DNA of 64,000 nucleotides from Candidatus Pacearchaeota archaeon (GCA_016188825.1 JACPHA010000005.1:45-64044); one strand, 5' to 3'; positions 1-53,370 are shown, numbered from the stretch's first letter. Translations and numbers: made by a program. The notes: a model not told the origin generated them from the letters alone.

Positions 1-125
1 AATTCTACAAGTCTACGCAAGTTTAGCAGGATTTCAGACGCCACGATTCTTTTAGGCTCGGCAATGGATTGCATTTAACTACCTTTCGAGATAATTTTAT
101 ATACTTTATGGGGCTAATTATCTTA

Positions 126-6931: not shown

Positions 6932-6939
6932 TGCGGAGT

Positions 6940-12601: not shown

Positions 12602-12688
12602 GAATTCTGGTAATTGGTATAAAATTTGTCCAGAATTCCCGTGATAGATAATTCCCAAAACCCCATACTAATTAAGGGAATTATCTAT
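12602..12688. repeat. Paired-hairpin intergenic element, copy A
   Basis: Hairpin 1: GAATTCTGG (12602-12610) / CCAGAATTC (12630-12638), 19 nt loop. Hairpin 2: ATAGATAATTCCC (12644-12656) / GGGAATTATCTAT (12676-12688), 19 nt loop. A perfect palindrome GATAATTATC lies at 12559-12568 just upstream. Confidence 0.8.
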
Positions 12689-12875
12689 AAATAATTTTTC
12701 TTATGGTGCTTTGTTGCACGAGTGAAGAATAAATTACAATTATCTACGATATAATAATTAAAACGAATCATTAATAATTTCTTTTTATCTAAGACAAATC
12801 AACCCAGCCTCATTCAATGCAATAGAATCTCTTACGAGTAAAAAGAATTAAAAAGAGTTCTTTTTTTTATAAGTC

Positions 12876-15908: not shown

Positions 15909-16148
15909 ATGGAAGAAAAAAAACAGGAAGAGATAAAAAAACAGGCGAGGGAAATTCTTGATAAATTTTCCAAGACACTTGCGAAAGTTGAGTTTAAGGA
16001 GAAAAAAATAGAAAGAGAAAAAGAAGCGGGAGGTTTCAGGGAAGAAGGAGAGGGGAAAGAAGTTGATCCTGATTTTAGAAAAAGGTTTTTTGAAAATGCG
16101 CCGAAAACAGAGGGGGATTTTATAATTGCAGAAAAGAAAAAGTGGTGA
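15909..16148 (+). CDS. Small acidic protein, possibly GatC-like
   Basis: 79 aa. The C-terminal FFENAPKTEGDFIIAEK resembles the GatC C-terminal NAP..G.F.VP motif. This is a weak call. Confidence 0.4.
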   Translation: MEEKKQEEIKKQAREILDKFSKTLAKVEFKEKKIEREKEAGGFREEGEGKEVDPDFRKRFFENAPKTEGDFIIAEKKKW

Positions 16149-16629
16149 ATTTGATGTATAGAAGAATTTGAATACCTATATTTTAAGAAATTTAATTACC
16201 CATAACAAGATGCTTATTTTATTATCTTATTTATTTTTGATGAATTACCGACTATATTATTAATCATCTAATTTCATTATTATCACGCCTTTTTATTGAT
16301 AAAAAGAAAACCATATTTTGAAGGTTTTTCAAAACCCCCTATATTAGATGACACGAACTTACCCAATCTTCATTATAAGAAATATAAAAATACTTTCTTG
16401 TCTTAATTATTAATAATGATTGAAAACAAAGAATTTTCATTAGCCAATTTAGAGTATTATTTTTGATTCGTTCTTTTTAATATAACTCGCGAGTCTAGGA
16501 CGGATTTAGAATATTAATCATACATATTAAGCTCTTTTATGTTATTTTTTAATATATCTTAGGCTATTTTTATAATAAAAGACTTAAAAAAGAAAGGTTT
16601 TTAAAGAAAATTTCATACATAATAAGCTT

Positions 16630-19600
16630 ATGATTAATGACTTGAAGAGAAAAATAATAGAACTGAAAAAAAATAGAGTGTTGGCTGTTAGAAATAAAGA
16701 GAAAATCATTCAAATTGCTAAAAAATTATTTTTGGATTATCAAAAAGGCAAGATAACAGAAGAAGAATATAAGGAAGAACTGAAGAAAAGTTTCGGCGGG
16801 AAAGAGGTAAAAGAATGGATTGAATATTATGATGTGTACATTGAGCAGTGCACCGGACAGATTGAATTTTATGGGTATAAATTAATGCAGGAGAAGACAA
16901 GAGCATTGACAAAGAAATTTGTTTCTTTTGTTTTAATTCTTGTTTTGTTTTTGATTCTGTTTTTTGTCTATTTACAACTGCAAAAACAGGTTTTTTTTGC
17001 TCCTATTACCGAAACCTATGTTGATAATTTGAATTTGTTTTATAATGAAAGTGCCGAATATGTTTGGAAACCGGAAAATGAAGGAAGAATCAACGGCGTG
17101 AAATTATCTGGTTTAATAGAAGGCGACGGCGAGGTTAAAGTTTATTTTGAGGATAAATTAATTTTGGACAGCAAGAATTTAGAAATCACCGAGGGAAAAA
17201 TAATAAGTGGAAACACAGTCTATAATAATTTAGATAATACAAGCGAAAATAATAATTTTAGTTCAGATAATATTTACGGCGGCGATGTTAATTTTTCTGG
17301 CAGCAGCGAGAATTTTGTTAGTAATCAGGCACAAGTTGAGAATACAATAAAGAAATTTAGTGAAATATGCGAAGAAACTTGTGACTTGAGTGAATTTAAT
17401 TTTAGTTCTGGAAATTATAAACTAAGAATTGAGATAAACGGAAACGCAAAGGTAAGAATTGATAATTTAAGTTATGGAATTTTTACAAAGGTAAGAATTG
17501 ATAATTTAAGTTATGGAATTTTTAAAGAAGTAGCAAAGGCAGAGGTTAAAGAGACTGCCCAAAGAGAGGAAAAAACTGCAAAAGGGAAAAAGGTTAATTT
17601 TGATGGCTTGATTCAGGGAGATTTAATTTCTACGGAAATTCCAGAGAGTTGGAATGTAAAAGATAAGAGCAAATTAAAAGTTTATTGGAAAGAAGGAGGG
17701 GAAGAAATTGATTTTGATGCTGTTGACAATAATAATGACGGAATTATCGACGAGCTTTCTTGGGAGAGTTCTCAGGGCGGAACTCAGACGTTTGAAATAA
17801 TTGTCATAACAAAAGCAGAGCATTTGGATTCTAATAAAGAATTTATTTCTGATATTTACGATTCCGTGAAGGAACTAGACGGGATTTGGAGCGAGGAGAT
17901 TCCAGACAAACATTATATAAGAGTTAAATTTGAAAGAAAATTGACAAACACGAATGATATTACAATTTATCCTCGAAAAATTAGCGGAAATCCAAGAATT
18001 GAGATTTATGAAATTAATGGGACTTCAACGATAGCTTCGTTTGACACTTTGAAAGATAATGAATATAACAAGGTTTATTTGACTTCATTGCAGAACAGCC
18101 AAGATAGTTTTGACCTTTTGGTTTTAGACGGAGCAATTGAGATTGAGCATATTGTGGATCCGAGCGCATCGCCGGGAAATGGAGTTGATTTAAGAGCGCA
18201 AGCTTGTGCTAGACAAAATCAACAAGGAAGTCAAAATACATTTGATTTAGCTTGTTTTGGAACATATCCTAATTCAACATGTTCCAGTTCTGGGGATAGA
18301 TTAAGCTGTGATGATGGAATTGTCGAAACCGCAACAACTTTCACAGGCACCTACGGAGGGATTAATGCCTCTTTTTATAATAGTTCAATAACAAACTGCG
18401 TTCAAATTGTGCAGGTATTTTTGTGTTATAATTTTTGGGGCAGTGCTCCTAATCAACATTCCTGTGAGGTTGGAGTTGATTCAGACGGGGGAGCTTCTTG
18501 GAGTAGTTTCAGTGTATCATGTTTTGGTGGTGATAGTGGAATAAGTTGTACTAACTTTACAGCAGGTCAAAATTGGCAGTGCAGCAATTTCTTTGGAGCG
18601 AACGGAACAAGTGCATTGGCAAAGGCACAAGCATTCAAGCAGGGCGGGGGCGGAATAAGGTCATGGAACTTTGATGTTTTATTCTTTAATTTAACTTATA
18701 CAGCGGATACAACACCTCCGCAAGTCACAATAATAGATCCTCAGAATAATTTTTATAACACTTCCTTTATTTACTTTAATATTTCTACTAATGAAAACAG
18801 CACTGCAAATTATAGTTTAGACGGCGGAAGAACAAATATTTCAATGAGCGCAAATGCATCTTTAACTGGTTTTACGGCTTTTAATAATTCAATTGCAGAT
18901 GGAATTTATACAGTTAATTATTATGTTAGAGATATTTATGGAAACTCTAATAACACGGAAAATGTAACATTTACAGTTGACACCACTGCTCCAACAGCAA
19001 ATTATGTTTCTCCGACTGAAAATTCTGGAGTTGCAAGAAACAGAGATTATATTGAGGTTAATGTTACAGCATCTGATTCTGGCGTTGGATTAGATAGCAT
19101 TTTGATAAGATTGTATAACTCTTCTCAAAATCAAATAAATAGCTCAACAACTTCATCTCCAAATTATATTAATTTTTCCGGCTTATCTGATGGATTATAT
19201 TTCTACAATACAACAGCAAATGATACTTTAAACAACAAAGTTGACTTAACAACAAGGAATATTACTTTGGATAGAACATTTCCTTTAATTTCTTATGGAG
19301 TTGGCACTGAAAATGACAATGCTGTTGTAAATAGAGACTGGATTTATGTTAATGTCACATTCTTAGAGATTAATTTTGCAAATATAACTTTCTTGTTGGT
19401 TAATGATTTTGGAATTGTTAATTCAACTACCCACACTACAGAAATTTATGAAATAAATTGGACAAATTTGCCTGCAGGGAATTATACTTACAATGTTTCA
19501 ATTTATGACCTCGCGGGAAACTTTAATTCAACTGCAACAAGAAAAATTAATTTGTCTGCCAGCGCCGGAAATTCCGCGCCAGAAATAATTTTTGTCGGTT

Positions 19601-20934
19601 TGGTAAATGATAGCTTTACTCCTTTGGGAAGTGCAACGCCGTTGGAAAGCAATGCGAGAAATGTAAGTTTTGTTTTCACTGCTTATGATGGGAATGGCGC
19701 AGGAAATTTAAACGGCAGCACAGCACAAGCAAGATTTCAGAGGACAGGGCAGATAACAAGAGAGAATTTAACTTGCTCTGAAATTTCAGGGCAAAACACA
19801 ACAAGCACAAAGAATTATAGTTGCACAATCGGAATGTGGTACTTCGATCAATCAGGAAATTGGATTGTAAATGCGACGATAAAAGACAATTCAAATGCAA
19901 TGGCGGAGAACTCATCAGCACAGTTCTTTTATGCAACTCTCGGCACTTTTGCTTTTTCACCTAAATCATTCGGGTTTGGAATTTTATTGCCCGGAGAGAT
20001 TAATAAATTGGCTTTGGAAGCGATGCTGATTAACAATACTGGAAATGCAAATTCTTCAAGTTTGAACATAACTGCTATTAATTTGTTGGGAGAGCAGGAT
20101 AGCAATTATATGATTCCTGCAGAAAACTTTACGGTTCATATTTCTGCTTTCTGTGATGTTGGGACAAGGATGCAAAATGGTACGAATGTTTCTGTTATCG
20201 GATCTTTATTGCCTCCAGGGAACAATTCGTTAAATTATAGGAATGAAACTTCAGGGCAGGAAGAATTGTATTTTTGTATTGAAGAAGTTCCAAACAGCAT
20301 TATTTCACAGGATTATTCAACAAGAATTGGCGGCTCTTGGGAGATTTTTATTTTTGTTGCGCCTTTTGTTATAAGAAGGAAGAGGAAAAAACATGGAAAA
20401 GAAATTAATGAAAAAATTGAAGTTGACAAAGAAGAGCTTCTTGATTTGTTGGGAGATAAATTAGAAGAATTGTTAATTTTAGTTAAGGAAAGAAAGATTA
20501 AGCGGGAAGAAAAAGAAATTATTAAGAAGGAGAAAATGGAGAAGAAAGAAATTGAAGTTCCTTTGGGAGTATTTAGAGAGAAAGCTGGAGCGGCGGAAGT
20601 ATTATGTAAATATCTGAGAGAAAACACTGGCTTGAAATTTGTTGAAATCGCAGAATTATTGAACAGAGACAGAAGGACAATAGGAGCCAATTACAAGAAT
20701 GCAGTTAGGAGAATAAAGAACAAGATAAAGATTGACAAAACAGGAGAGGAAATTTATATACCAATAGAAATTTTGGCAAACAGGAAATTGAGTATTTTAG
20801 AATCTGTCGTTCATTACTTGAGAGAAAAAGGCTTGAGAAATTCTGAAATAGCGGGCATGCTTAATAGAGACCCGAGGAATGTTTGGACTTTGTACTCAAG
20901 GGCAGTAAAGAAATTAAGGAAGAGTAATATTTAA
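16630..20934 (+). CDS. Giant two-TM surface protein with cytoplasmic C-terminal tandem HTH (cassette 1, gene 1)
   Basis: 1,434 aa. In order: a Lys/Glu-rich N-terminal ~95 aa; TM1 FVSFVLILVLFLILFFVYL (~16915-16985); a ~1,150 aa Asn/Cys-rich middle part full of N-x-S/T sequons; TM2 WEIFIFVAPFVI (~20338-20373) followed by RRKRKKHGK (positive-inside); then two HTH repeats. The last ~290 ectodomain residues are homologous to the signal-peptide protein encoded at 20980, which supports an extracellular location. Confidence 0.85.
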   Translation: MINDLKRKIIELKKNRVLAVRNKEKIIQIAKKLFLDYQKGKITEEEYKEELKKSFGGKEVKEWIEYYDVYIEQCTGQIEFYGYKLMQEKTRALTKKFVSFVLILVLFLILFFVYLQLQKQVFFAPITETYVDNLNLFYNESAEYVWKPENEGRINGVKLSGLIEGDGEVKVYFEDKLILDSKNLEITEGKIISGNTVYNNLDNTSENNNFSSDNIYGGDVNFSGSSENFVSNQAQVENTIKKFSEICEETCDLSEFNFSSGNYKLRIEINGNAKVRIDNLSYGIFTKVRIDNLSYGIFKEVAKAEVKETAQREEKTAKGKKVNFDGLIQGDLISTEIPESWNVKDKSKLKVYWKEGGEEIDFDAVDNNNDGIIDELSWESSQGGTQTFEIIVITKAEHLDSNKEFISDIYDSVKELDGIWSEEIPDKHYIRVKFERKLTNTNDITIYPRKISGNPRIEIYEINGTSTIASFDTLKDNEYNKVYLTSLQNSQDSFDLLVLDGAIEIEHIVDPSASPGNGVDLRAQACARQNQQGSQNTFDLACFGTYPNSTCSSSGDRLSCDDGIVETATTFTGTYGGINASFYNSSITNCVQIVQVFLCYNFWGSAPNQHSCEVGVDSDGGASWSSFSVSCFGGDSGISCTNFTAGQNWQCSNFFGANGTSALAKAQAFKQGGGGIRSWNFDVLFFNLTYTADTTPPQVTIIDPQNNFYNTSFIYFNISTNENSTANYSLDGGRTNISMSANASLTGFTAFNNSIADGIYTVNYYVRDIYGNSNNTENVTFTVDTTAPTANYVSPTENSGVARNRDYIEVNVTASDSGVGLDSILIRLYNSSQNQINSSTTSSPNYINFSGLSDGLYFYNTTANDTLNNKVDLTTRNITLDRTFPLISYGVGTENDNAVVNRDWIYVNVTFLEINFANITFLLVNDFGIVNSTTHTTEIYEINWTNLPAGNYTYNVSIYDLAGNFNSTATRKINLSASAGNSAPEIIFVGLVNDSFTPLGSATPLESNARNVSFVFTAYDGNGAGNLNGSTAQARFQRTGQITRENLTCSEISGQNTTSTKNYSCTIGMWYFDQSGNWIVNATIKDNSNAMAENSSAQFFYATLGTFAFSPKSFGFGILLPGEINKLALEAMLINNTGNANSSSLNITAINLLGEQDSNYMIPAENFTVHISAFCDVGTRMQNGTNVSVIGSLLPPGNNSLNYRNETSGQEELYFCIEEVPNSIISQDYSTRIGGSWEIFIFVAPFVIRRKRKKHGKEINEKIEVDKEELLDLLGDKLEELLILVKERKIKREEKEIIKKEKMEKKEIEVPLGVFREKAGAAEVLCKYLRENTGLKFVEIAELLNRDRRTIGANYKNAVRRIKNKIKIDKTGEEIYIPIEILANRKLSILESVVHYLREKGLRNSEIAGMLNRDPRNVWTLYSRAVKKLRKSNI
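17447..17524 (+). repeat. Perfect 39 bp tandem duplication inside cassette-1 gene 1
   Basis: caaaggtaagaattgataatttaagttatggaattttta occurs at 17447-17485 and again at 17486-17524 (protein KVRIDNLSYGIFT / KVRIDNLSYGIFK). The paralog at 25435-25473 has one copy. Confidence 0.95.
20560..20931 (+). other. Tandem HTH domains (sigma-70 region 4 / LuxR-GerE-like) of the 1,434 aa protein
   Basis: AAEVLCKYLRENTGLKFVEIAELLNRDRRTIGANYKNAVRRIKNK and ILESVVHYLREKGLRNSEIAGMLNRDPRNVWTLYSRAVKKLRK. The pattern h-L-E-x(4)-L-x-E-x-G-x(3)-EIA-x-L-x-R-x(2)-R-T/N-V-W-x(2)-Y-x-R-A-x-KKL matches the sigma70_r4/GerE helix-turn-helix layout. Confidence 0.7.
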
Positions 20935-20979: not shown

Positions 20980-21918
20980 ATGGAAAAGACAAAAATTATT
21001 TATTTTTTTATTATGTTTGTTGTTATCGCTTTGTTTTTGATTAATTTTGTTTCTGCTAGTTTTGGTGATTGGCTTAGAGAATTGTTTGGAGGAGAGCCGC
21101 AACTTGCGCCATTTAATCTTACTGTAACTGTTGGGAATACTCCGCCCAATATAACTTTTGTTATTGCTCCCGGAGCTTCGCCAGTAGAAAACGGAACTTC
21201 TTTTGTCAATGTTATTTTCACAGCATTTGACCAAAATGGAGCAGGAGATTTAAATAGCAGTACAGCGCAAGCAAGATTTCAGAGGACAGGGCAGATAACA
21301 AGAGAGAATTTAACTTGTGCTGAAGTTTTAGGACAGGCAACAACGAACACGAAGAACTATAGTTGCACAATCGGAATGTTGTACTTCGATCAATCTGGAA
21401 ATTGGATTGTAAATGCGACGATAAAAGACAATTCTAATGCAATGGCGGAGAATTCCAGCGCAATATTTTCATATGGGACTTTTATTGGCACATTCTTTTC
21501 TCCTAAACAAATGTCGTGGGATTCATTAAGCGCCGGAGCCGCTAATGTACCCTCGGGCAATAATCCCATGCTTTTGAATAATACAGGCAATGTTAACATT
21601 AATTATACTAATGGCAACTTTAATATTACCGCTATTGATTTGGAGATAGAAAATCCTGGAAGCGGCGAATATATATATGCCGGAAACTTCAGCGTTGATA
21701 TAAGTGCTGCAGGATGTTTAGGAACACAAATGGCAAATGGAACTTCAAGAGCAATAGTAAATGCCATCTTACCACCGGGAAACAATTCATTAAATTATAG
21801 AAATGATAGTTCAGGACAGGAAGAATTATACTTCTGCATAACCGCCTTAAGCGGAACTTTATCACCTGGAACATATTCAGCTTTGAAAGGAGGCTCATGG
21901 AAACTTGATTATTTGTAA
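20980..21918 (+). CDS. Secreted Asn-rich protein, free-standing paralog of the membrane-proximal ectodomain of the upstream gene (cassette 1, gene 2)
   Basis: 312 aa. Signal peptide IIYFFIMFVVIALFLINFVSA followed by SFGDW. Blocks are identical or nearly identical to 19726-19910 of the upstream gene (e.g. 21268-21317 = 19726-19775, 50/50 nt). No TM or HTH at the C-terminus. Confidence 0.8.
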   Translation: MEKTKIIYFFIMFVVIALFLINFVSASFGDWLRELFGGEPQLAPFNLTVTVGNTPPNITFVIAPGASPVENGTSFVNVIFTAFDQNGAGDLNSSTAQARFQRTGQITRENLTCAEVLGQATTNTKNYSCTIGMLYFDQSGNWIVNATIKDNSNAMAENSSAIFSYGTFIGTFFSPKQMSWDSLSAGAANVPSGNNPMLLNNTGNVNINYTNGNFNITAIDLEIENPGSGEYIYAGNFSVDISAAGCLGTQMANGTSRAIVNAILPPGNNSLNYRNDSSGQEELYFCITALSGTLSPGTYSALKGGSWKLDYL

Positions 21919-21919
21919 A

Positions 21920-22585
21920 ATGATAAAAAGTAATTCAATTATAAAGTTCGGAATTTGTAGTTTGTTTTTGATTATTATTTTGAGCTCGGGAGTAATTTCC
22001 CCAGGAGTTGCTTCTCCGCCCTATGGCCCTGAGAGCCCCCTAGAACTTGTGCCAGGAGAGAGTAAGAGTTTAGATTTTATCTTGCAAAATGCCGGCGGAG
22101 AAGATATTAAATTTAGAGTAACTTTGACACAAGGAGAGGCGATTGCAAGGCTAACAGATAATAATTTGGAGTATCTTGTTCCTGCCGGAAGAACAGACGT
22201 CAAAGTTCCTGTTTTGGTCAGCATTCCAGAAGAGGCAGTTTTAGGAAGCGAACACACGGTTGGTATTTCTGTTGAGGAAATCCCTGTTACAAGCGAAGGA
22301 ACTTTACAGTTTGCAACCCGCTACGGCAGTTCTTTTCCTGTAGTTGTTAAGGCTTTTTCGCCAGGAGAGGCGGGTGGAGAAACAGAAGAGGGATTGAGCA
22401 CAGGGCTTTTGATTGGAATTGCAATTGGAATTTTGGTTTTGTTAATAATAATTTTAGTTGTCGTTTTGAAGAGAAGAAGTAAAGCAGGAAGCATGATGGC
22501 AGGAACTGGGCAGACAGAGGCTCAAATGCAGACAAGCGGAGAAATGGAAGATGAAAGGAAAGGACCTGTTTATTCTTTGAAGTGA
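21920..22585 (+). CDS. C-terminally anchored single beta-sandwich surface protein (cassette 1, gene 3)
   Basis: The ORF track starts at TTG 21905; ATG 21920 lies 1 nt after the upstream stop. In order: signal peptide, PGESKSLDFILQNAGGEDIKFRV-type strand pattern, Gly/Glu linker, TM LLIGIAIGILVLLIIILVVVL, then KRRSK. Confidence 0.7.
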   Translation: MIKSNSIIKFGICSLFLIIILSSGVISPGVASPPYGPESPLELVPGESKSLDFILQNAGGEDIKFRVTLTQGEAIARLTDNNLEYLVPAGRTDVKVPVLVSIPEEAVLGSEHTVGISVEEIPVTSEGTLQFATRYGSSFPVVVKAFSPGEAGGETEEGLSTGLLIGIAIGILVLLIIILVVVLKRRSKAGSMMAGTGQTEAQMQTSGEMEDERKGPVYSLK

Positions 22586-23012: not shown

Positions 23013-23486
23013 TCAACATTTCACAATATTTTTTTCTCCGAGTTTGCAGGTATAATAATATAAGGAGAGAGTTTTTGGGTTTTTTGAAGATTCTTCAGAG
23101 AAGAAGTAGGTTTTTGTTGTTCCGGGAGCAAGGATTTCACAGCCAGGACAGGAATTTGTGTTTTCGCAAATCCATGATGACTCCGAATTTTCATAACTGA
23201 TTATGAATGTTAAAGAGTTGATATTGATGTTTTCAGAAGATCTTGTTAGCGTTGCTTCTGTTTCATTTGTCTCTTGACTGAAGCAAACATTATTTATTGT
23301 TATGGGATTTTTTATCTGCAAATCAATGCAATTAAATTCTGGAGAAAGGGTTTTTGTGCCAATTGGTTTTATTAGAGTGTTATATAATAAAAATGCCGCC
23401 GCGATTATAATTAATACTAGAGATAATGTTATGACTATTTCAGCCAAACCCTTTTTATTTAATTTTTCTATTTTCATATTCTGCAT
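23013..23486 (-). CDS. Type IV pilin-like protein (class III signal peptide)
   Basis: N-terminus MQNMKIEKLNKKG/LAEIVITLSLVLIIIAAAFLLY: a short basic region, Gly, then ~22 hydrophobic residues, as in archaeal prepilins. 13 nt overlap with the upstream protease gene. Confidence 0.55.
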   Translation of the reverse strand: MQNMKIEKLNKKGLAEIVITLSLVLIIIAAAFLLYNTLIKPIGTKTLSPEFNCIDLQIKNPITINNVCFSQETNETEATLTRSSENININSLTFIISYENSESSWICENTNSCPGCEILAPGTTKTYFFSEESSKNPKTLSLYYYTCKLGEKNIVKC

Positions 23487-24589: not shown

Positions 24590-24803
24590 TTTGTGTTAAT
24601 TTAGTGTTTTTTTTGGTTAATAAGTTTGATGTTTTTATTTTTTATGCCAAGAGGGTTTCTAAAGTATGCTGTTATTAAATAGTACATAAATAATAAGTAT
24701 AATTAATAAAAGCACAATATTTATAAGTATTAATACATAAATAATAGGTAAATTTGGAGTGTATTGGGAGACGTATTATGAATAGATGTAAAAATAGCGG
24801 GAA

Positions 24804-27800
24804 ATGAGCAAAATAAAAAATAAAATTTTTGAATTGCAGGAGAAAAAGAGAGAGATTTTTGTTAAAATCGCCCAATTAAAAAAAGAGAAAGATAAATCAG
24901 ATTATAATATCCAGTTAAGAACTTATCATGCACAGAAAGAATGGGTTGAGAGCGAGATAAGGCGAGAAAAAAGAAAATCTGTTAGAAATATTTTAATTCC
25001 GATATTTTTCATTTCTTTATTTTTAGTTGTGATTTTTCTTTATGTATTTTTTAAACCAACGCTGACAGGGTTTGCAGTTTTTGAAGGAGTTAGTAAGATT
25101 TATACAAAACAATTGGATATTTGGGAGAATAATAGTGAGGAATATACAATTGAAATTAATGAGAGTGGAAGAATCAACAGCGTGAAATTATCTGGTTTAA
25201 TAGAAGGCGACGGCGAAGTCAAAGTTTATTTTGAGGATAAATTAATTCTTTATAGCAATAATCTGAAAGTTAGCGAGACCAAGTTAATAAATAAAACTCT
25301 AGATGATAACCAAACACAAGAAGTTGAAGTTGCAATAAAGAAATTTAGTGAAATATGCGAAGAAACTTGTGACTTGAGTGAATTTAATTTTAGTTCTGGA
25401 AATTATAAACTAAGAATTGAGATAAACGGAAACGCAAAGGTAAGAATTGATAATTTAAGTTATGGAATTTTTAGAGAAGAGAAAATTGAAAGAGGGAAAA
25501 GAGCAGAGTTTGTTGAGCTGGTTGAGGGAGATATAATTTCGACGGAAATTCCGGAAAGCTGGAATATAAAAAATAAAAATAAAATAAAAATTTATTGGGA
25601 AGAAGGAGGAAAAGAAATTGATTTTGACGTCGGTGATAATGATAATGATGGAGTTATTGATGAAGTTTCTTGGACAAGCCCGCAGGGCGGAACTCAGACG
25701 TTTGAAATAATTGTCATAACAAAAGCAGAGCATTTGGATTCTAATAAAGAATTTATTTCTGATATTTACGAGGATGTTCGCGAGCTGGATGGAAAGTGGA
25801 GCGAGGAAATTCCATCAGGGGATTTTGTAAGAGTTAAATTTGAAAGAAAATTGACAAACACGAATGATATTACAATTTATCCTCGAAAAATTAGTGGAAA
25901 TCCAAGAATTGAGATTTATGAAATTAACGGGACTTCAACGATAGCTTCGTTTGACACTTTGAAAGATAATGAGTATAACAAAGTATTTTTGACTTCATTA
26001 CAAGGTGAGCAGGATAGTTTTGACCTTTTGGTTTTAGACGGAGCAATTGAGATTGAGCATATTATTGACCCTACACAACTATTCTTTGAGAATTTTGAAG
26101 CTGGGAATTTAAATAATTGGAATAACGTAGCTTTATGGAATAATGCATCAGACCGAAAGGACACGGGGACATATAGCGCTAAATGCACAGGTGCTAATGA
26201 TTGTGATATGAGTCTTGCTACTGCCTTAGATACTTCAACTGCTTCAGAAGTTAATGTAACTTTCAGATTTAATGATGATGATTTGGATGGAGTAGGCGAC
26301 GCACCATATTATTGGAATGACAGTTCTGGAAATTGGGATTTGATAGGAGAACTTGATTCAGCCACAGAAGATACATGGCTTACTTTTTCAAATTCATCAA
26401 CTGATTCGCAATATTTCCATAAAGGATTTAACATAAGGTTTACTACCACTCTTGATGGTGGTGGTGGCGTTGAAAATCTTTGGCTTGATAATATAAATGT
26501 TTCTTATACTCCCGATACAACTCCTCCAATAGTAACAATAAATCAGCCAACTCCTCCCTATGTGAATATCTCAACATCAAGCGTTGACTTCAATGTAACA
26601 ATAGACGAGAATGGCGATACAGCTAGATACACATTAGACAGTGGAGCAAACAATGTAACAATGCAAAAAAACGGCCAGAGAGACTTTAATCATACAAATT
26701 CCAGCATAGCAGATGGCTTGTATACTATAAGATTTTATGTAAATGATACAGCAGGCAATTTAAATGATACAGCAAATAGAACATTTACAGTTGACACCAC
26801 TTCTCCAACAGCAAATTATGTTTCTCCGACTGAAAATTCTGGAGCTGCAAGAAACAGAGATTATATTGAGGTTAATGTTACAGCATCTGATTCTGGCGTT
26901 GGATTAGATAGCATTTTGATAAGATTGTATAACTCTTCTCAAAATCAAATAAATAGCTCAACAACAACTTCATCTCCAAATTATATTAATTTTTCAGGCT
27001 TATCTGACGGATTATATTTCTACAATGCAACAGCAAATGATACTTTAAACAACAAAGTTGACTTAACAACAAGGAATATTACTTTGGATAGAACATTTCC
27101 TTTAATTTCTTATGGAGTTGGCACAGCAGACGACGGAGCAAATTTAACACAATCAAATATTTATGTTAATGTCTCGGTTACAGAAACAAACTTTGCAAAT
27201 ATAACTTTCTTGTTGAGGAATGATACCGCAACAGTAAATTCTACAACATTTACAACCGCAACTTATGAAATTAACTGGACAGGTCTTCCATTGACAAATT
27301 ATACATACAATGTTTCAATTTATGATACGGCCGGGAATTTTAATTCAACAGCTACGAGGAAGATTAATTTATCAGAGGCAGCGCTAAATTCAGCTCCAAC
27401 AATAACGTTTGTAAGCATTATGCCTGCGACAGACCCAAGTGAAAACACCATTAAGAATATTTTATTTAATTTTACAGCTACAGATGCAGATGGTGGAGGA
27501 AATATTAATATTAGTACAGCGCAAGCAAGATTCCAACTTACTGGACAGACAACAAGGTCCAATTTAACTTGCGCAAATATTACCGGTGTTTTTAGCAGTA
27601 ATAATATGAACTTCACTTGCACTGTTGGAATGTGGTATTTTGACTATCCAGGAGCATGGACAGTTAATGTTACAATTTCTGATAATAGCGCAGCAAATGG
27701 CGAGAATTCAACAACAACATTTACTTATAATACTCTGAATGCGATGGTAATGTCTCCCAATGCTTTAACATGGGCAAGTTTATCAGCCGGGGCTTTGAAC

Positions 27801-28742
27801 ACGCTTTCTAACAATGACCCAATCTTGATAAACAACACAGGAAACAAGAATGTAACAAACATTACTATAAATGCGATAAATTTGATTGGTGAGCAGAATG
27901 GTGCTTATAATATTCCTGCGGCGAATTTTACAGTCAGCATAACCGATTCTTGTGATTCCGGAACAATTATGGGAAATAACTCTCAAATTCAAGTTGGCAG
28001 TGCAATTTTGCCGAGAGGGAATAACTCATTAAATTATGGGAACGAAACTTCAGGACAGGAGCAGTTTTACTTTTGTTTGGAAGAAGTTCCGCAAAGCATT
28101 CCTTCACAACCATATTCAACATCTGCAGGAGGCGCATGGACCATAACAATTCTTGCGACAGTGTTTGCTGTTGCCGGGAGCGCTAGAAGAAAGAGGAAGA
28201 AGAAAATTAAGGATGATAAGCTAGTAGATGTTTTGGGCTCGATAATAGACGAGATAAAAGAAAAACATTCTTTGAGTAAGGCAGAAATACTAAACTTGGT
28301 TGTGAAAGAATTAAAAGAGAAGTATAAGATTAGCAATAGTGAGATAGCTGAGATTCTTGAACTGAAGCAGAAGGACAATATTCCAATAACAATATTTTCC
28401 AGCAAACTTGGAGGTTTAGAAGCACTGGTTAAATATTTGAAGGAGAATGTTGAGATGAGATTCAGTGAGATTGCTAAAGTGCTGGGAAGAGATGACAGGA
28501 CGGTATGGACTGCATACAAAAAAGCATCAGAAAAAGAAAAAGAGAGGTTGAAAGTTAAGGAAACAGAAGTTTTGCTGCCGATTTCAATATTTAAAGACAG
28601 GAGAACGACTGTGCTTGAAGCTGCTATAATGCATCTTAAAGAAAAGGGCATGAAATATAGTGAAATAGGAGAATTGCTTGGAAGAGACCAGAGAAATGTC
28701 TGGGCTATTTATTCGAGAGCAGTTAAGAAGTTGAGGAAATAA
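24804..28742 (+). CDS. Giant two-TM surface protein with cytoplasmic C-terminal tandem HTH (cassette 2, gene 1)
   Basis: 1,312 aa paralog of 16630..20934. TM1 ILIPIFFISLFLVVIFLYVFF (~24990-25055). TM2 WTITILATVFAVAG (~28138-28180) followed by SARRKRKKK. Two HTH repeats follow. Several blocks are 100% identical to the cassette-1 gene. Confidence 0.85.
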   Translation: MSKIKNKIFELQEKKREIFVKIAQLKKEKDKSDYNIQLRTYHAQKEWVESEIRREKRKSVRNILIPIFFISLFLVVIFLYVFFKPTLTGFAVFEGVSKIYTKQLDIWENNSEEYTIEINESGRINSVKLSGLIEGDGEVKVYFEDKLILYSNNLKVSETKLINKTLDDNQTQEVEVAIKKFSEICEETCDLSEFNFSSGNYKLRIEINGNAKVRIDNLSYGIFREEKIERGKRAEFVELVEGDIISTEIPESWNIKNKNKIKIYWEEGGKEIDFDVGDNDNDGVIDEVSWTSPQGGTQTFEIIVITKAEHLDSNKEFISDIYEDVRELDGKWSEEIPSGDFVRVKFERKLTNTNDITIYPRKISGNPRIEIYEINGTSTIASFDTLKDNEYNKVFLTSLQGEQDSFDLLVLDGAIEIEHIIDPTQLFFENFEAGNLNNWNNVALWNNASDRKDTGTYSAKCTGANDCDMSLATALDTSTASEVNVTFRFNDDDLDGVGDAPYYWNDSSGNWDLIGELDSATEDTWLTFSNSSTDSQYFHKGFNIRFTTTLDGGGGVENLWLDNINVSYTPDTTPPIVTINQPTPPYVNISTSSVDFNVTIDENGDTARYTLDSGANNVTMQKNGQRDFNHTNSSIADGLYTIRFYVNDTAGNLNDTANRTFTVDTTSPTANYVSPTENSGAARNRDYIEVNVTASDSGVGLDSILIRLYNSSQNQINSSTTTSSPNYINFSGLSDGLYFYNATANDTLNNKVDLTTRNITLDRTFPLISYGVGTADDGANLTQSNIYVNVSVTETNFANITFLLRNDTATVNSTTFTTATYEINWTGLPLTNYTYNVSIYDTAGNFNSTATRKINLSEAALNSAPTITFVSIMPATDPSENTIKNILFNFTATDADGGGNINISTAQARFQLTGQTTRSNLTCANITGVFSSNNMNFTCTVGMWYFDYPGAWTVNVTISDNSAANGENSTTTFTYNTLNAMVMSPNALTWASLSAGALNTLSNNDPILINNTGNKNVTNITINAINLIGEQNGAYNIPAANFTVSITDSCDSGTIMGNNSQIQVGSAILPRGNNSLNYGNETSGQEQFYFCLEEVPQSIPSQPYSTSAGGAWTITILATVFAVAGSARRKRKKKIKDDKLVDVLGSIIDEIKEKHSLSKAEILNLVVKELKEKYKISNSEIAEILELKQKDNIPITIFSSKLGGLEALVKYLKENVEMRFSEIAKVLGRDDRTVWTAYKKASEKEKERLKVKETEVLLPISIFKDRRTTVLEAAIMHLKEKGMKYSEIGELLGRDQRNVWAIYSRAVKKLRK
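28380..28739 (+). other. Tandem HTH domains of the 1,312 aa protein
   Basis: GLEALVKYLKENVEMRFSEIAKVLGRDDRTVWTAYKKASEK and VLEAAIMHLKEKGMKYSEIGELLGRDQRNVWAIYSRAVKKLRK. Confidence 0.7.
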
Positions 28743-29047: not shown

Positions 29048-29983
29048 ATGGACAATAAAAAGAGTGTCTACGGAAAGATTTTGTTTTTGATTTTGATATT
29101 TGCTATTGTTTTTGCCCTTTCTTCGTCTGAATTTTTTAATTGGCCTCTTTCTTTATATAATCTTATCACTGGACGAGCAACAACTAGCACAACAAGTTTG
29201 AATATTAGCGTTACAAATACAGCACCGATAATAACCTTTGTCAGCGCGATTGCTGCGACAGATCCGACCGAAAGCAGCACAGTTAATATCAGAGTTAATT
29301 TTACAGCAAATGATGCCAATGGAGGAAGCGATCTGGATAGGTTTGGTGGGCAAGCAAGATTTCAGTTTACTGGACAGACAACAAGATCCAATTTATCATG
29401 CTCAAATGTAACAGGGGTTTTTAGCAGTAATAATATGAACTTCACTTGCACTGTTGGAATGTGGTATTTTGATGTGCCTGCCAGCTGGACTGCTAATATA
29501 ACTATAAATGATTCGGCAAATGCCAGAGGAGAGAATAGCACAACGACATTTACTTTCAATACATTAAATGCAATGGTTATGTCTCCTACGGCATTAACAT
29601 GGGCTTCTTTAAGTATAACTTCAACAAATGTAGGTTCTAATAATGATCCAATCACAATAAATAACACAGGCAATAAGAACGTGACCAATGTAACTGTTAC
29701 AGGAATTGATCTTCGTGGAGAATCAAATGGTGCATTTGCTATTTTTGCAAGAAATATTTCAGTAAATGCGGTTGATGTTTCGGATGGGTTCCTTATGTTA
29801 AATAATTCTGCTGTTCAAGTTGAAAACGCAACATTATTAAGAGGAAATAACTCATTAAATTATGGGAATGAAACTTCAGGACAGGAGCAGATTTACTTTT
29901 ACGTAGAGGCTCTTAATCCGGATTTAACATCGCAGGCATATTCAACATTGGCCGGAGGTGCATGGACTGTGACATCGCAATAA
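29048..29983 (+). CDS. Secreted Asn-rich protein, free-standing paralog of the upstream ectodomain (cassette 2, gene 2)
   Basis: 311 aa. Signal peptide ILFLILIFAIVFALSSS followed by EFFNW. 29417-29472 is identical (56/56 nt) to 27588-27643 of the upstream gene. No TM or HTH. Confidence 0.8.
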   Translation: MDNKKSVYGKILFLILIFAIVFALSSSEFFNWPLSLYNLITGRATTSTTSLNISVTNTAPIITFVSAIAATDPTESSTVNIRVNFTANDANGGSDLDRFGGQARFQFTGQTTRSNLSCSNVTGVFSSNNMNFTCTVGMWYFDVPASWTANITINDSANARGENSTTTFTFNTLNAMVMSPTALTWASLSITSTNVGSNNDPITINNTGNKNVTNVTVTGIDLRGESNGAFAIFARNISVNAVDVSDGFLMLNNSAVQVENATLLRGNNSLNYGNETSGQEQIYFYVEALNPDLTSQAYSTLAGGAWTVTSQ

Positions 29984-29984: not shown

Positions 29985-30608
29985 ATGATGAATCACAAAA
30001 GAAATTATTTGCTTATTGGAGCATTATTATTTGTAATTATTTTTGTTTCTTACGTAGAATCAGCAGGAGTTGCTACTTCTTATTGGGAAGGATATGAGCT
30101 TAAAATGGCTCCGGGAGAGACGAGAGAAGTTTCTATGAGACTGCAAAATATGGTCGGAAGTGAAGACCTTACTTTTAGAGCAGAGCTTAAGGAGGGGGGA
30201 GAAATAGCCGTTTTAACAGATGAAAATTTAGATTATTTAGTTCCGCTTGGCAGGAACGATGTTAGAGTTAATTTGAGAATTACAATTCCTCAAGATGCTA
30301 AATTCGGAGATAAATATAATGTAAGGGTTTTGTTTAGAGAGATTAAAAGCGGAGAGGGAAAGACAGTGGAGTTTGCAACGGCCGTTGAAGGTTCTTTCCC
30401 TGTTTTGATTGTTGGAGAGGGCGAGCAGAGTCTTCAGGAAAGTCCTACAACTGGACAAATAACTGCGGAATCAGGAGCAAAAGGAAAAATAGCTATTATT
30501 TTATTAATTATTGCAGGCGTTATTGTAATAATATATTTGATTATTAAGAAAAGAAAAAAGACAGAAGATAAAAAAAGTTCTAAAACAAAGGCAGAGAAGA
30601 AATTTTAA
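29985..30608 (+). CDS. C-terminally anchored single beta-sandwich surface protein (cassette 2, gene 3)
   Basis: 207 aa paralog of 21920..22585. In order: signal peptide, PGETREVSMRLQNMVGSEDLTFRA, linker, TM IAIILLIIAGVIVIIYLII, then KKRKK. The ATG lies 1 nt after the upstream stop. Confidence 0.75.
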   Translation: MMNHKRNYLLIGALLFVIIFVSYVESAGVATSYWEGYELKMAPGETREVSMRLQNMVGSEDLTFRAELKEGGEIAVLTDENLDYLVPLGRNDVRVNLRITIPQDAKFGDKYNVRVLFREIKSGEGKTVEFATAVEGSFPVLIVGEGEQSLQESPTTGQITAESGAKGKIAIILLIIAGVIVIIYLIIKKRKKTEDKKSSKTKAEKKF

Positions 30609-30674: not shown

Positions 30675-30760
30675 ATAGATAATTCCCTTGATTAGTATAG
30701 GGCTTGGGGAATTATCTATCACGAGAATTCTGGACAATTTTTAGACTAATTACCAGAATT
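30675..30760. repeat. Paired-hairpin intergenic element, copy B (inverted relative to copy A)
   Basis: ATAGATAATTCCC (30675-30687) / GGGAATTATCTAT (30707-30719) with a 19 nt loop. GAATTCTGG (30725-30733) / CCAGAATT (30753-30760) with a 19 nt loop. The reverse-complemented loops match copy A at 15/19 and 16/19 positions. Confidence 0.8.
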
Positions 30761-32575: not shown

Positions 32576-32599
32576 ATATTTGCCTTGGTGTTTTTTATT

Positions 32600-49989: not shown

Positions 49990-49992
49990 TTT

Positions 49993-50202: not shown

Positions 50203-50252
50203 AGAAAATAGTTATATTAATGGATATAAAAAACTATCGGAGATTATAAAGA

Positions 50253-53363: not shown

Positions 53364-53370
53364 CTGTTTA

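What the first reader, a model, noticed from the sequence alone, without database searches (positions are those of the whole stretch)
16630..20934. Membrane-tethered transcription-factor architecture: ~1,150 aa glycoprotein-like ectodomain wired to two cytoplasmic sigma70-r4/LuxR-like HTH domains
The topology can be read from the sequence. TM1 is preceded by KTRALTKK. The middle part is Asn/Cys-rich and homologous to a signal-peptide protein, so it should be outside the cell. TM2 (WEIFIFVAPFVI) is followed by RRKRKKHGK. Then come ~190 cytoplasmic residues containing two copies of h-LE-x4-YL-x-E-x-G-x3-EIA-x-L-x-RD-x-R-x-VW-x2-Y-x-RA-x-KKL. The paralog 24804-28742 has the same layout (HTHs at ~28380-28739). 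A one-component transmembrane DNA-binding protein with an ectodomain this large would be an unusual way for an archaeon to couple surface or host contact to transcription. Alternatively, the HTH part could be released by regulated proteolysis; a metalloprotease gene lies between the two cassettes.
Basis: partly seen in the sequence, partly recalled or inferred. Interest (0 to 1): 0.85.

Follow-up and report, generated by a model that had tools for sequence, protein, structure and literature searches.

The report
Giant surface protein with self-regulating DNA-binding tail
Two giant surface glycoproteins of a tiny DPANN archaeon end in a pair of DNA-binding domains on the cytoplasmic side, and a conserved 16-base motif flanking their own promoters suggests each protein controls its own gene; the design is common in these archaea but seems undescribed.

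Summary
ORFs 16630-20934 (1434 aa) and 24804-28742 (1312 aa) are intact paralogs. Each has a cytoplasmic N-domain, a strong TM1, an Asn/Ser/Thr-rich ectodomain with 51-54 sequons, a short hydrophobic stretch, a polybasic cluster and two sigma-70-region-4/LuxR-type HTH units. The HTH units pass the Pfam gathering score and model at pLDDT above 90.

The design is not rare. A profile of the tail finds 2,226 protein clusters. In genomes the best 80 of 279 confirmed loci are nearly all Woesearchaeota, Pacearchaeota or Nanoarchaeota MAGs. The tail is usually fused to proteins of up to 5,919 aa, or sits as a roughly 180-aa gene abutting one.

New here is a conserved 16-nt quasi-palindrome, CATACATAATAAGTAT, which flanks the TATA box of these genes. 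It occurs upstream of 36/64 family ORFs against 2/541 control ORFs. In the window it occurs only at the two family promoters.

The best reading is a membrane-tethered autoregulator of a conserved three-gene surface-protein cassette. Three weak points remain:
- TM2 is unusually short (median 14 aa) and its topology is inferred.
- DNA binding is untested.
- Host-contact sensing, the hairpin targets and the M64 protease link are unsupported.

I found no paper describing the family.

The parts
16519..16534 (+). Weak distal copy of the 16-nt operator-like motif (CATACATATTAAGCTC)
   Evidence: PWM score 10.9. It forms a direct repeat with the 16614 copy.
16598..16606 (+). TATA-like box (TTTTTAAAG), -32 to -24 from the ATG
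   Evidence: Read from the sequence. It sits where TTTATAA starts (-31/-30) in 18 of 40 family promoters.
16614..16629 (+). Proximal operator-like motif (CATACATAATAAGCTT) abutting the start codon
   Evidence: PWM score 16.6. The same position (-16 to -1) recurs across family genes.
16630..20934 (+). ORF1, 1434 aa: giant surface protein with C-terminal tandem HTH
16630..16917 (+). N-terminal cytoplasmic helical domain (aa 1-96; conserved G-x-I-T-x-E-E-Y and E-W-I-x-Y-Y-D motifs)
   Evidence: Alignment of 35 family N-termini. Lys/Glu-rich with no sequons.
16918..16974 (+). TM1 signal anchor (aa 97-115), N-in
   Evidence: Kyte-Doolittle mean 3.18; 5 K/R in the N-flank against 1 in the C-flank. 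A strong hydrophobic peak (Kyte-Doolittle 2.0-3.3), mostly 80-105 aa from the called start, was found in 39 of 41 start-complete family members.
16975..20337 (+). Ectodomain (aa 116-1236), Asn/Ser/Thr-rich, 54 sequons, Ig-like repeats
   Evidence: (Big_13, 31.1 bits)
19543..20346 (+). Conserved membrane-proximal ecto-domain (aa 972-1239), ending Y-S-T-x-x-G-G-S-W
   Evidence: 56% identity to the secreted ORF 20980-21918. tblastn hits fall inside the family ORF in 66 related loci. The junction is conserved.
20338..20373 (+). Short hydrophobic segment, the candidate TM2 (WEIFIFVAPFVI, aa 1237-1248)
   Evidence: AlphaFold is uninformative here.
20374..20400 (+). Polybasic cluster RRKRKKHGK (stop-transfer, positive-inside)
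   Evidence: Most family members listed have 6-7 K/R in 7 residues at this place.
20401..20544 (+). Helical Lys/Glu-rich linker (aa 1258-1305)
   Evidence: AlphaFold helix H44-81, pLDDT 67-85.
20545..20715 (+). HTH unit A (aa about 1306-1362)
   Evidence: Profile hit of the repeat unit. AlphaFold pLDDT above 90: a strand plus four helices.
20746..20931 (+). HTH unit B (aa about 1373-1434), the best Sigma70_r4_2 match
   Evidence: Pfam 29.0-34.3 bits against 25.7. AlphaFold pLDDT 95-98. Foldseek matches sigma region 4 domains.
20980..21918 (+). Cassette gene 2: secreted 312-aa paralog of the membrane-proximal domain. It ends at GGSWKLDYL, where TM2 begins in ORF1.
   Evidence: A homolog lies within 1.5 kb downstream in 47 related loci.
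21905..22585 (+). Cassette gene 3: 226-aa protein with a signal peptide, an Ig-like domain and a long C-terminal TM anchor
   Evidence: Homologs are present in 49 related loci.
24685..24700 (+). Distal operator-like motif of ORF2 (CATAAATAATAAGTAT)
   Evidence: PWM score 21.5. Exact repeat search.
24720..24727 (+). TATA box TTTATAAG of ORF2
   Evidence: Sequence. Family promoter alignment.
24736..24751 (+). Proximal operator-like motif of ORF2 (CATAAATAATAGGTAA). The ATG lies 53 nt further on.
   Evidence: PWM score 17.6.
24804..28742 (+). ORF2, 1312 aa, paralog with the same layout. TM1 at 24990-25046, candidate TM2 at 28137-28184, RRKRKKK at 28185-28205, HTH-A about 28359-28532, HTH-B about 28557-28739.
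29048..29983 (+). Cassette gene 2 of the second cassette (311 aa, secreted, ends GGAWTVTSQ)
29985..30608 (+). Cassette gene 3 of the second cassette (207 aa: signal peptide, Ig-like domain, C-terminal TM)

Best explanation
Each ORF is a bitopic-plus giant surface glycoprotein of a Woesearchaeota/Pacearchaeota-type DPANN archaeon. Its last 180 residues or so form a cytoplasmic pseudo-dimeric DNA-binding module: two sigma-70-region-4/LuxR-type HTH units on one chain.

Shown:
- the domain order
- the HTH fold
- conservation of the architecture in thousands of relatives
- the existence of split versions, in which the same 2xHTH module is a separate soluble gene abutting a giant surface-protein gene
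- a 16-nt quasi-palindromic motif (CATACATAATAAGTAT; half-sites ATAC and GTAT about 11 bp apart) found almost only at the promoters of HTH-bearing genes. Typically one copy lies upstream of the TATA box (about -67). A second lies between the TATA box and the start codon (-16 to -1).

Inferred:
- The tandem HTH binds this motif.
- The proximal site, which covers the expected start of a leaderless transcript, lets the protein repress its own three-gene cassette (giant protein, secreted paralog of its membrane-proximal domain, small anchored Ig-like protein).
- The short hydrophobic segment plus the Arg/Lys cluster acts as a stop-transfer anchor, so the regulator works while tethered to the membrane.

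The outcome would be that transcription of a very costly surface protein is set by how many copies already sit in the membrane. The recognition helices and the motif are both conserved between paralogs, so the two cassettes in this window would also regulate each other.
For: HTH:
- Sigma70_r4_2 scores above the gathering threshold in both ORFs and hits 28 of 30 family members.
- AlphaFold gives pLDDT 90-98 for both units.
- The top PDB fold matches are sigma region 4 and RcsB/LuxR HTHs: TM-score 0.63-0.78 normalised to the target, rmsd 1.7-2.6 A over about 50 residues.
- The best PDB sequence match is the archaeal regulator EnfR, 8hnp.
- The invariant residues of the family cluster in the turn and recognition helix: R123, R126, D191, R193, W196, T197, R201, A202, K205.

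Cytoplasmic location:
- Stand-alone homologs have no signal or TM segment.
- The tail's composition matches the N-terminal cytoplasmic part and not the ectodomain.
- TM1 is N-in by the positive-inside rule.
- Most fused members examined have 6-7 K/R in 7 residues directly after the hydrophobic stretch.

Link to surface proteins:
- 64 of 86 HTH ORFs in 81 loci are fused to large ORFs.
- Most stand-alone genes overlap or abut a large Asn/Ser/Thr-rich ORF. Six overlap by 10-16 nt; others are stop-to-stop overlaps or gaps of 4-53 nt.
- In L001 a 1313-aa ortholog of the ectodomain stops, and the 2xHTH gene starts at the next base.

Operator:
- Unbiased k-mer enrichment: ATAATAAGTA occurs in 16 of 40 upstream regions against 0.27 in shuffles.
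- 33 of 40 upstream regions carry the motif, usually as two or more direct copies about 52 nt apart.
- A PWM scan of 1.16 Mb gives 90 hits against 4 in shuffles. Of these, 63 fall in the 0.5% of sequence upstream of fused genes. Of the 27 others, 15 lie upstream of stand-alone HTH genes and 5 upstream of family genes whose starts were miscalled.
- 36/64 family ORFs carry it against 2/541 control ORFs, Fisher p = 5.5e-38.
- TTTATAA is fixed at -31/-30 between the two copies.
- In the 64-kb window, all three hits at score 11 or more, and the next best site (10.9), are at these two promoters.
Against: - No binding experiment exists. Another factor could bind the motif.
- The PWM was built from the same upstream regions it was then scored on. 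The k-mer test and the 541 control ORFs are independent of that choice.
- 28 of 64 family ORFs show no motif at the threshold used. Start codons were called as the first ATG, so some calls are wrong.
- TM2 is very short: median 14 aa, longest apolar run of median 10, and 78 of 114 have a charged residue next to the Trp. It fails a standard hydropathy threshold. AlphaFold models it at pLDDT 35-45.
- C-terminal anchors of neighbouring surface proteins in the same genome are 20-23 apolar residues long.
- Foldseek E-values for the whole tail are weak, at best 0.017.
- The direction of regulation, repression or activation, is inferred from site position only.
Confidence: 0.55

Rival explanations
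1. Release by regulated proteolysis, in the manner of Notch, SREBP or RsiW. The tethered tail is inactive. Shedding or engagement of the ectodomain, for example on host contact, triggers cleavage within or next to the marginal TM2. The freed 2xHTH then binds the operators.
For: - TM2 is short and marginal, and 73 of 114 members have Pro or Gly in its last six residues. By general knowledge of site-2-protease and rhomboid substrates, helix-destabilising residues favour intramembrane cleavage.
- Soluble stand-alone versions of the module exist, so it can work untethered.
- An M64-like peptidase with an N-terminal anchor lies between the two cassettes.
Against: - No intramembrane protease (M50, rhomboid, presenilin-like) appeared among the ORFs of 120 aa or more that were scanned, plus a few shorter ones.
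- The M64 homolog is present in only 3 of the 81 related loci.
- No conserved cleavage motif was identified.
- Nothing ties the ectodomain to ligand or host sensing.
Confidence: 0.2
2. A DNA-membrane tether rather than a regulator. The tail anchors the chromosome, or the cassette locus itself, to the membrane at the site of the surface structure. This could serve co-transcriptional insertion of a giant protein or nucleoid positioning in a very small cell, with no control of transcription rate.
For: - The module is always at the membrane-proximal cytoplasmic end, after a helical linker of median 47 residues (10th-90th percentile 26-60).
- The motif lies at the family's own genes. That would bring the template to the insertion site.
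Against: - The fixed placement of the two sites around the TATA box and over the transcript start is the arrangement expected of a transcriptional regulator. A simple tether could sit anywhere.
- Soluble stand-alone versions keep the same motif upstream (L044, L062, L070, L076).
Confidence: 0.1
3. The hydrophobic stretch does not span the membrane and the basic HTH tail is extracellular. There it would bind environmental or host DNA, or anionic surface polymers.
For: - TM2 is too short by standard criteria.
- By general knowledge, DPANN archaea depend on scavenged nucleotides.
Against: - Stand-alone homologs have no export signal.
- The tail has no sequons, and its Lys/Glu/Arg-rich composition matches the cytoplasmic N-domain and not the ectodomain.
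- A cluster of 6-7 Arg/Lys directly after a hydrophobic stretch is a classic stop-transfer signal.
- The specific promoter motif has no explanation under this reading.
Confidence: 0.05
4. Assembly or frameshift artefact that fuses a surface-protein gene to a downstream regulator gene.
For: - Split arrangements exist in other genomes.
- One relative (L071) looks interrupted.
Against: - Both paralogs in the window are fused.
- The same in-frame junction, with a conserved hydrophobic-plus-basic connector, recurs in 64 ORFs from independent MAGs and in many of the 150 top metagenomic representatives.
Confidence: 0.01

Closest known systems
Transmembrane transcription regulators (ToxR, TcpP, CadC type), as surveyed by Demey et al. 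2023 (PMC10269533)
   Same: - One polypeptide combines a membrane anchor, an extracytoplasmic part and a cytoplasmic DNA-binding domain.
- Regulation is presumed to occur from the membrane.
- It meets that paper's operational definition: a predicted TM region plus a predicted DNA-binding domain.
   Different: - The classical members have an N-terminal OmpR-type winged helix, one TM and a small periplasmic sensor.
- Here the DNA-binding part is C-terminal. It is a tandem of sigma-4/LuxR-type HTHs and lies behind a second, very short TM.
- The extracytoplasmic part is a glycoprotein of roughly 1,000 to more than 5,000 aa.
- The main text of that paper mentions neither DPANN nor Nanoarchaeota.
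ArnR / ArnR1 of Sulfolobus acidocaldarius (PMC6396743)
   Same: They are archaeal membrane-bound one-component transcription factors that control genes for cell-surface structures.
   Different: - By general knowledge and the paper's abstract, ArnR has an N-terminal HTH with C-terminal TM helices. It has no large ectodomain and acts on archaellum and pilus promoters.
- No sequence relationship was seen: no shared Pfam family among the hits.
Tfx / EnfR family of archaeal regulators (EnfR structure 8hnp; PMC10570040)
   Same: - The sigma-70-region-4-like HTH is used as a DNA-binding domain in an archaeon.
- It is the best PDB sequence match (E 0.0086), with weak NCBIfam hits.
   Different: - Tfx and EnfR are soluble proteins of about 140-150 aa with one HTH plus a C-terminal domain.
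- Scores here are far below the family cut-offs: 13.8 against 60.25 for tfx, 21.5 against 260 for EnfR.
- This is a tandem HTH with no Tfx C-domain.
ECF sigma factor / membrane anti-sigma systems, and LuxR/GerE-type regulators
   Same: The region-4-type HTH fold is shared. The top fold matches are SigE, SigR and SigD region 4, and RcsB.
   Different: - There is no sigma region 2, and archaea do not use sigma factors.
- The HTH is part of the membrane protein itself. It is not sequestered by a separate anti-sigma factor.
- GerE was matched by only 4 of 30 members.
Eukaryotic membrane-tethered transcription factors released by proteolysis (Notch, SREBP, ATF6)
   Same: The overall logic is a large extracytoplasmic or luminal part, a TM segment and a cytoplasmic DNA-binding or transcription module.
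   Different: - There is no homology, and cleavage is not shown here.
- With no nuclear envelope, release is not required for access to DNA.

Membership tests
Sigma-70 region 4 / LuxR-type HTH superfamily (Pfam Sigma70_r4_2, PF08281) | Profile match at or above Pfam's gathering score | tested here: met
   29.0 and 33.3 bits against 25.7 for the two full ORFs. 34.3 bits for the isolated tail, and 28 of 30 relatives match, best E 7.6e-16.
Sigma-70 region 4 / LuxR-type HTH superfamily (Pfam Sigma70_r4_2, PF08281) | Compact helical HTH fold superposable on solved region-4 domains | tested here: met
   AlphaFold pLDDT 90-98 for both units. Foldseek gives TM-score 0.63-0.78 (target-normalised) and rmsd 1.7-2.6 A to SigR, SigD and SigE region 4. 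The whole-query E-values are weak, 0.017-0.5.
Sigma factors (sigma-70 / ECF) | Region 2 (core-binding and -10 recognition) present together with region 4 | tested here: not met
   No Sigma70_r2 hit. TIGR02937 scores 12.8 and 23.7 bits against a cut-off of 42.9. The protein is not a sigma factor.
Tfx / EnfR archaeal regulators | Family model score above the NCBIfam cut-off, covering the HTH plus the Tfx C-terminal domain | tested here: not met
   TIGR00721 tfx scores 13.8 against 60.25. NF053597 EnfR scores 21.5 against 260. Only the roughly 40-residue HTH aligns.
Transmembrane transcription regulators (operational class of PMC10269533) | At least one predicted TM region in the same protein as a predicted DNA-binding domain | tested here: met
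   TM1 is unambiguous and the DNA-binding domain passes Pfam's threshold.
Transmembrane transcription regulators (operational class of PMC10269533) | DNA-binding domain on the cytoplasmic side while the protein stays in the membrane | tested here: inconclusive
   The positive-inside rule, composition and signal-less soluble homologs favour it. TM2 is only 12-16 residues and no predictor or model confirms it.
Transmembrane transcription regulators (operational class of PMC10269533) | Sequence-specific binding to target promoters | not testable with these tools
   There is only a comparative-genomic prediction of the operator CATACATAATAAGTAT.
ToxR / CadC-type regulators | N-terminal OmpR-type winged-helix DNA-binding domain followed by a single TM | tested here: not met
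   No Trans_reg_C hit. The DNA-binding part is C-terminal and of another fold.
Substrates of regulated intramembrane proteolysis | Helix-destabilising residues in the TM segment, and a cognate intramembrane protease | tested here: inconclusive
   Pro or Gly occurs in the last six TM2 residues of 73 of 114 members. No M50, rhomboid or presenilin-type hit appeared among the window ORFs scanned. The rest of the genome was not available.
C-terminal sorting signals (PGF-CTERM, PEP-CTERM, LPXTG type) | Signature motif, TM helix and basic cluster at the very C-terminus of the protein | tested here: not met
   A three-part look-alike exists: YST..G[AS]W, a hydrophobic stretch and RRKRKKK. It is followed by 170-330 further residues. 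The YST..GxW part is the last strand of a domain that also ends the secreted paralogs. No sorting-signal model scored above threshold; Por_Secre_tail gave 15.4 bits against 27.

The most novel reading that the evidence does not exclude
The tails form a contact- or damage-responsive switch. Engagement or loss of the giant ectodomain changes the tail, by release through cleavage of the marginal TM2 or by clustering. All paralogs share one operator, so the tails cross-regulate one another. This would give a DPANN cell a built-in circuit that chooses or balances which giant adhesin cassette is expressed: a prokaryotic analogue of Notch-type signalling combined with surface-variant switching.
Probability: 0.15. 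Interest if true: 0.9.

Novelty: new variant of a known kind. Interest (0 to 1): 0.72.

Why it matters
DPANN archaea live attached to other cells. They devote a large share of very small genomes to giant, fast-evolving surface proteins, and how these are controlled is unknown.

This work defines a large family with no dedicated Pfam or NCBIfam model. It has at least 2,226 clusters at 50% identity, and 279 loci were confirmed across a collection of 185,579 species-representative genomes. In this family the regulator is physically part of the surface protein. The work also predicts the regulator's operator and the promoter layout.

That gives a directly testable handle on gene regulation in organisms that mostly cannot be cultured. 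The tests are EMSA, DAP-seq or in vitro transcription with a 180-aa fragment and a 16-mer. It also adds an archaeal design with a C-terminal tandem HTH and a giant ectodomain to the short list of transcription factors that act from the membrane.

The 16-nt motif and the tail profile can also be used to find and delimit surface-protein cassettes in DPANN metagenomes.

Tried and rejected
- AlphaFold on the segment covering the last ecto-domain, TM2 and the tail, with a 30-sequence alignment, to see whether TM2 forms a helix. The region came out at pLDDT 35-45, so it is uninformative.
- Foldseek of the whole tail against the PDB gave no match at E <= 0.001. Only the per-domain superpositions are informative.
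- My first hand-made operator pattern (TACATAWWTAAGC) was mis-specified and found nothing relevant. It was replaced by unbiased k-mer counting.
They are another palindrome and score 7.1 or less with the operator PWM.
- The M64 peptidase as a conserved partner was rejected: it is in 3 of the 81 related loci. The pilin-like 157-aa neighbour is in none.
- A sigma-70-type promoter and terminator scan is not meaningful for an archaeon and showed no enrichment.
- tRNA and Rfam scans of the window found nothing.
- Exact-sequence look-ups of both ORFs in the assembly index found no record.
- Four literature searches for this architecture in DPANN, Woesearchaeota or Nanoarchaeota found nothing specific.
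- A frameshift or fusion artefact, a sorting-signal reading and a sigma-factor reading were each considered and rejected. See the rival explanations and the membership test.

Full report
**1. What is in the sequence**

The window is 31-36% G+C. It carries archaeal housekeeping genes: ribosomal protein L15e, MetRS, AspRS, GatB/E and topoisomerase I. Next to them lies a long island of surface-protein genes, including a 4462-aa beta-helix protein.

ORF 16630-20934 (1434 aa) and ORF 24804-28742 (1312 aa) are both open. They are 52% identical over their whole length.

Hydropathy gives one strong transmembrane segment near each N-terminus, at aa 97-115 and aa 63-81 (means 3.18 and 3.04). Each has 5-6 Lys/Arg in the 15 residues before it and 1 after it, so the N-terminus is cytoplasmic.

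The roughly 1,030-1,120 residues that follow are 11-12% Asn. They carry 54 and 51 N-x-S/T sequons and contain Ig-like domains (Big_13, 31.1 and 30.3 bits against 27). The N-terminal part and the last 185 residues or so are Lys/Glu/Arg-rich with no sequons.

The ectodomain ends in Y-S-T-x-x-G-G-[SA]-W. A short hydrophobic stretch follows (WEIFIFVAPFVI in one, WTITILATVFAVAGSA in the other), then RRKRKKHGK or RRKRKKK. After that come a helical linker and two repeats of about 60 residues. Two qualifications apply: 'Cys-rich' holds only for aa about 520-680, and TM2 does not reach a standard 19-residue hydropathy threshold.

**2. The tail is a tandem sigma-4/LuxR-type HTH**

- Sigma70_r4_2 is matched above Pfam's gathering score in both ORFs (29.0 and 33.3 bits against 25.7). 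It is matched in 28 of 30 relatives.
- NCBIfam gives only sub-threshold hits: ECF sigma region 4, Tfx and EnfR.
- The best solved relative by sequence is the archaeal regulator EnfR, 8hnp (E 0.0086; PMC10570040).
- AlphaFold models each unit as a short strand plus four helices, at pLDDT 90-98.
- Foldseek's top PDB matches are region 4 of SigE, SigR, SigD and SigF, and the LuxR-type domain of RcsB. Target-normalised TM-scores are 0.63-0.78 and rmsd 1.7-2.6 A over about 50 residues. Whole-query E-values are weak.
- There is no sigma region 2, so this is not a sigma factor.
- The residues that never vary among relatives lie in the turn and recognition helix of both units: R-D-x-R-[TN]-[IV]-W-T-x-Y-x-x-A-x-K-K.

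**3. The architecture is a large family with no dedicated Pfam or NCBIfam model**

A profile of the tail finds 2,226 representative proteins (50% identity clusters) at E <= 0.001, and 1,053 at E <= 1e-30. Many are 1,000-5,919 aa long with the module at the extreme C-terminus.

In species-representative genomes, 279 loci were confirmed. The best 80 are nearly all Woesearchaeota, Pacearchaeota or 'Nanoarchaeota' MAGs; a few are labelled otherwise (one Patescibacteria, two Methanosarcinales). They include the complete genome GW2011_AR20.

In 81 loci, 64 of 86 HTH-bearing ORFs are fused to large ORFs. The junction is conserved: Y-S-T..G-[AS]-W-[TE]-I-x-I, then 8-12 apolar residues, then 6-7 Lys/Arg in 7, then a linker of median 47 residues (10th-90th percentile 26-60), then two or four HTH units.

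Members with a complete 5' end nearly all have a strong TM1, mostly 80-105 aa from the called start. In 35 of them that were aligned, the stretch before TM1 is a conserved domain with an E-W-I-x-Y-Y-D motif.

Public sources call these proteins 'hypothetical', 'transcriptional regulator', 'CsgD family' or 'sigma-70 region 4 domain-containing'. Four literature searches found no description of the family. The census of transmembrane regulators (PMC10269533) does not mention DPANN in its main text.

**4. Split versions tie the module to giant surface proteins and place it in the cytoplasm**

About 17 ORFs in the loci are stand-alone 2xHTH genes of about 170-200 aa with no signal or TM segment. Most of them abut a large Asn/Ser/Thr-rich ORF:
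- six overlap it by 10-16 nt, usually lying just upstream of it
- three are stop-to-stop overlaps
- three show gaps of 4-53 nt
- three show no such neighbour.

In a Woesearchaeota contig (L001), a 1313-aa ortholog of the ectodomain ends without any hydrophobic tail. The 2xHTH gene, beginning MKIKKRTRTEKK, starts at the next base. A second 2xHTH gene overlaps the start of a 2216-aa surface protein.

So the same two parts occur fused or as neighbours. The soluble form has no way out of the cell. This is the strongest argument that the fused tail is cytoplasmic too. The hydrophobic stretch plus the polybasic cluster is the only possible crossing point.

**5. A conserved operator-like motif at the family's own promoters (new)**

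I first saw similar direct repeats upstream of both ORFs. I then counted k-mers in the 250 nt upstream of 40 family genes with complete 5' ends.

- ATAATAAGTA occurs in 16 of them (0.27 in dinucleotide-type shuffles), and CATACATA in 13 (0.67 in shuffles).
- The full element is CATACATAATAAGTAT. It is a quasi-palindrome, with ATAC and GTAT half-sites centred about 11 bp apart.
- 33 of 40 upstream regions carry it. Most have two or more direct copies, typically at about -67 and about -15, and the proximal copy runs into the ATG.
- Between the two copies, TTTATAA starts at -31/-30 in 18 of 40.
- By the usual archaeal distance from TATA box to transcript start, the transcripts would be leaderless. 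The proximal site would then cover the start point. By general knowledge, archaeal repressors that block polymerase recruitment bind at that position.
Of these, 63 lie in the 0.5% of sequence upstream of fused genes. Of the other 27, 15 lie upstream of stand-alone HTH genes (L044, L062, L070, L076) and 5 upstream of family genes whose start I had miscalled.
- With 541 other ORFs as controls, the motif is upstream of 36/64 family ORFs against 2/541 (Fisher p = 5.5e-38). One of the two control hits is a family gene broken by a frameshift.
- In the 64-kb window, the three hits at score 11 or more are at 16614, 24685 and 24736. A weaker copy is at 16519. All are at the two family promoters.

The PWM was built from the same regions, which inflates scores. 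The k-mer test and the control ORFs do not depend on it.

**6. Mechanism proposed**

Two nearly identical recognition helices on one chain fit a 16-bp quasi-palindrome. Four-unit members could span two sites.

I propose that the tail binds these sites and, through the proximal one, represses its own promoter. The domain order, the fold, conservation, the gene linkage and the motif distribution are shown. Binding, the direction of regulation and tethering are inferred.

The unit regulated is a conserved three-gene cassette:
- the giant protein
- a secreted paralog of about 310 aa of its membrane-proximal domain, which ends exactly where TM2 begins in the giant protein (20980-21918 and 29048-29983). 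A homolog lies within 1.5 kb downstream in 47 loci.
- a protein of about 210-230 aa with a signal peptide, an Ig-like domain and a long C-terminal anchor (homologs in 49-50 loci).

Fusion makes regulator and product strictly 1:1. It places the regulator where the finished protein sits, so expression can be set by membrane occupancy. Because motif and recognition helices are shared, the two cassettes in the window should cross-regulate.

**7. The weak link**

Over 114 distinct junctions, the distance from the conserved Trp to the basic cluster has a median of 14 residues (12-16). The longest apolar run has a median of 10. A charged residue lies next to the Trp in 78 of them, and 73 have Pro or Gly in the last six positions.

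Ordinary C-terminal anchors in the same genome are 20-23 apolar residues. AlphaFold is uninformative for this segment.

A short hydrophobic stretch followed by 6-7 basic residues can act as a stop-transfer signal, by general knowledge of the positive-inside rule. A marginal segment of this kind is also what substrates of intramembrane proteases look like. Release by proteolysis therefore remains a live rival.

Nothing else supports that rival. No intramembrane protease was found among the window ORFs scanned. The M64-like peptidase between the cassettes is found in only 3 of the 81 related loci.

**8. Comparison with what is known, and verdict**

Functionally this belongs with transmembrane transcription regulators (ToxR, CadC; archaeal ArnR, PMC6396743), and it meets their operational definition. 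It differs from all described members in four ways:
- the orientation, with a C-terminal DNA-binding part
- the fold and its tandem arrangement
- the second, very short TM
- the giant glycoprotein ectodomain.

It is not a sigma factor, not a Tfx/EnfR member and not a sorting signal (see the membership test).

I rate it a new variant of a known kind. The added finding of the operator and promoter layout makes the hypothesis directly testable.

Noticed in passing
window 12620-12700, 30680-30740, 52020-52190, 55530-55640: A different repeated palindrome (ATAGATAATTCCC ... GGGAATTATCTAT and variants) sits in four intergenic regions. It is not the operator motif, scoring 7.1 or less with that PWM. 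Its function is unknown.
   Followed up: partly
window 16630-20934 versus 24804-28742: The two paralogs are mosaics. Blocks of 94-96% nucleotide identity (17333-17501, 17912-18092, 19145-19317) alternate with unalignable stretches such as the Cys-rich insert at aa 520-680. The HTH tails are only about 50% identical. This looks like gene conversion or recombination between surface-protein cassettes.
   Followed up: partly
window about 17450-17520 (aa 274-297 of ORF1): ORF1 has an internal tandem duplication of 12 residues (KVRIDNLSYGIF repeated) that the paralog lacks.
   Followed up: no
window 35857-49245 (+): A 4462-aa ORF with 11 right-handed beta-helix/NosD stretches and a Laminin_G_3 domain. 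It has no HTH tail and no operator motif upstream, so it is a separate kind of giant surface protein. It is followed by several ORFs with no Pfam match (49247-57754).
   Followed up: partly
window 23013-24589 (-): An M64-like peptidase (371 aa with an N-terminal anchor; 27.3 bits against 26) and a 157-aa protein with a pilin-like N-terminal hydrophobic segment lie between the two cassettes on the opposite strand. Among the 81 related loci, the peptidase recurs in 3 and the small protein in none.
   Followed up: yes
window 30878-32575 and 32585-34237 (+): Two further paralogous surface proteins of about 550 aa. Each has a poly-Gly run, Ig-like domains and a long C-terminal TM anchor. They have no HTH tail.
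   Followed up: no
L050 about 6870-6970; L076 6651-6847: Some relatives carry arrays of 5-6 operator copies at a regular spacing of 20 or 32 nt upstream of the HTH gene, not the usual pair.
   Followed up: no
P0001-P0003, P0014-P0036, L031, L035-L037, L048, L055: A sub-group has four HTH units (A-B-A-B) where the window's proteins have two. Four units could in principle reach both operator copies at once.
   Followed up: no
window 69-950 (+) and 60399-63344 (-): A tyrosine recombinase (XerC/D or phage-integrase type) lies at the left edge, next to topoisomerase I. A UvrD-helicase/PD-(D/E)XK nuclease fusion (AddA-like, 981 aa) lies near the right edge.
   Followed up: no
window 15910-16148 (+): A small unlisted ORF of about 79 aa, Lys/Glu-rich, lies in the 738-nt gap upstream of ORF1. 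The remaining roughly 480 nt before ORF1 is non-coding and very AT-rich.
   Followed up: no
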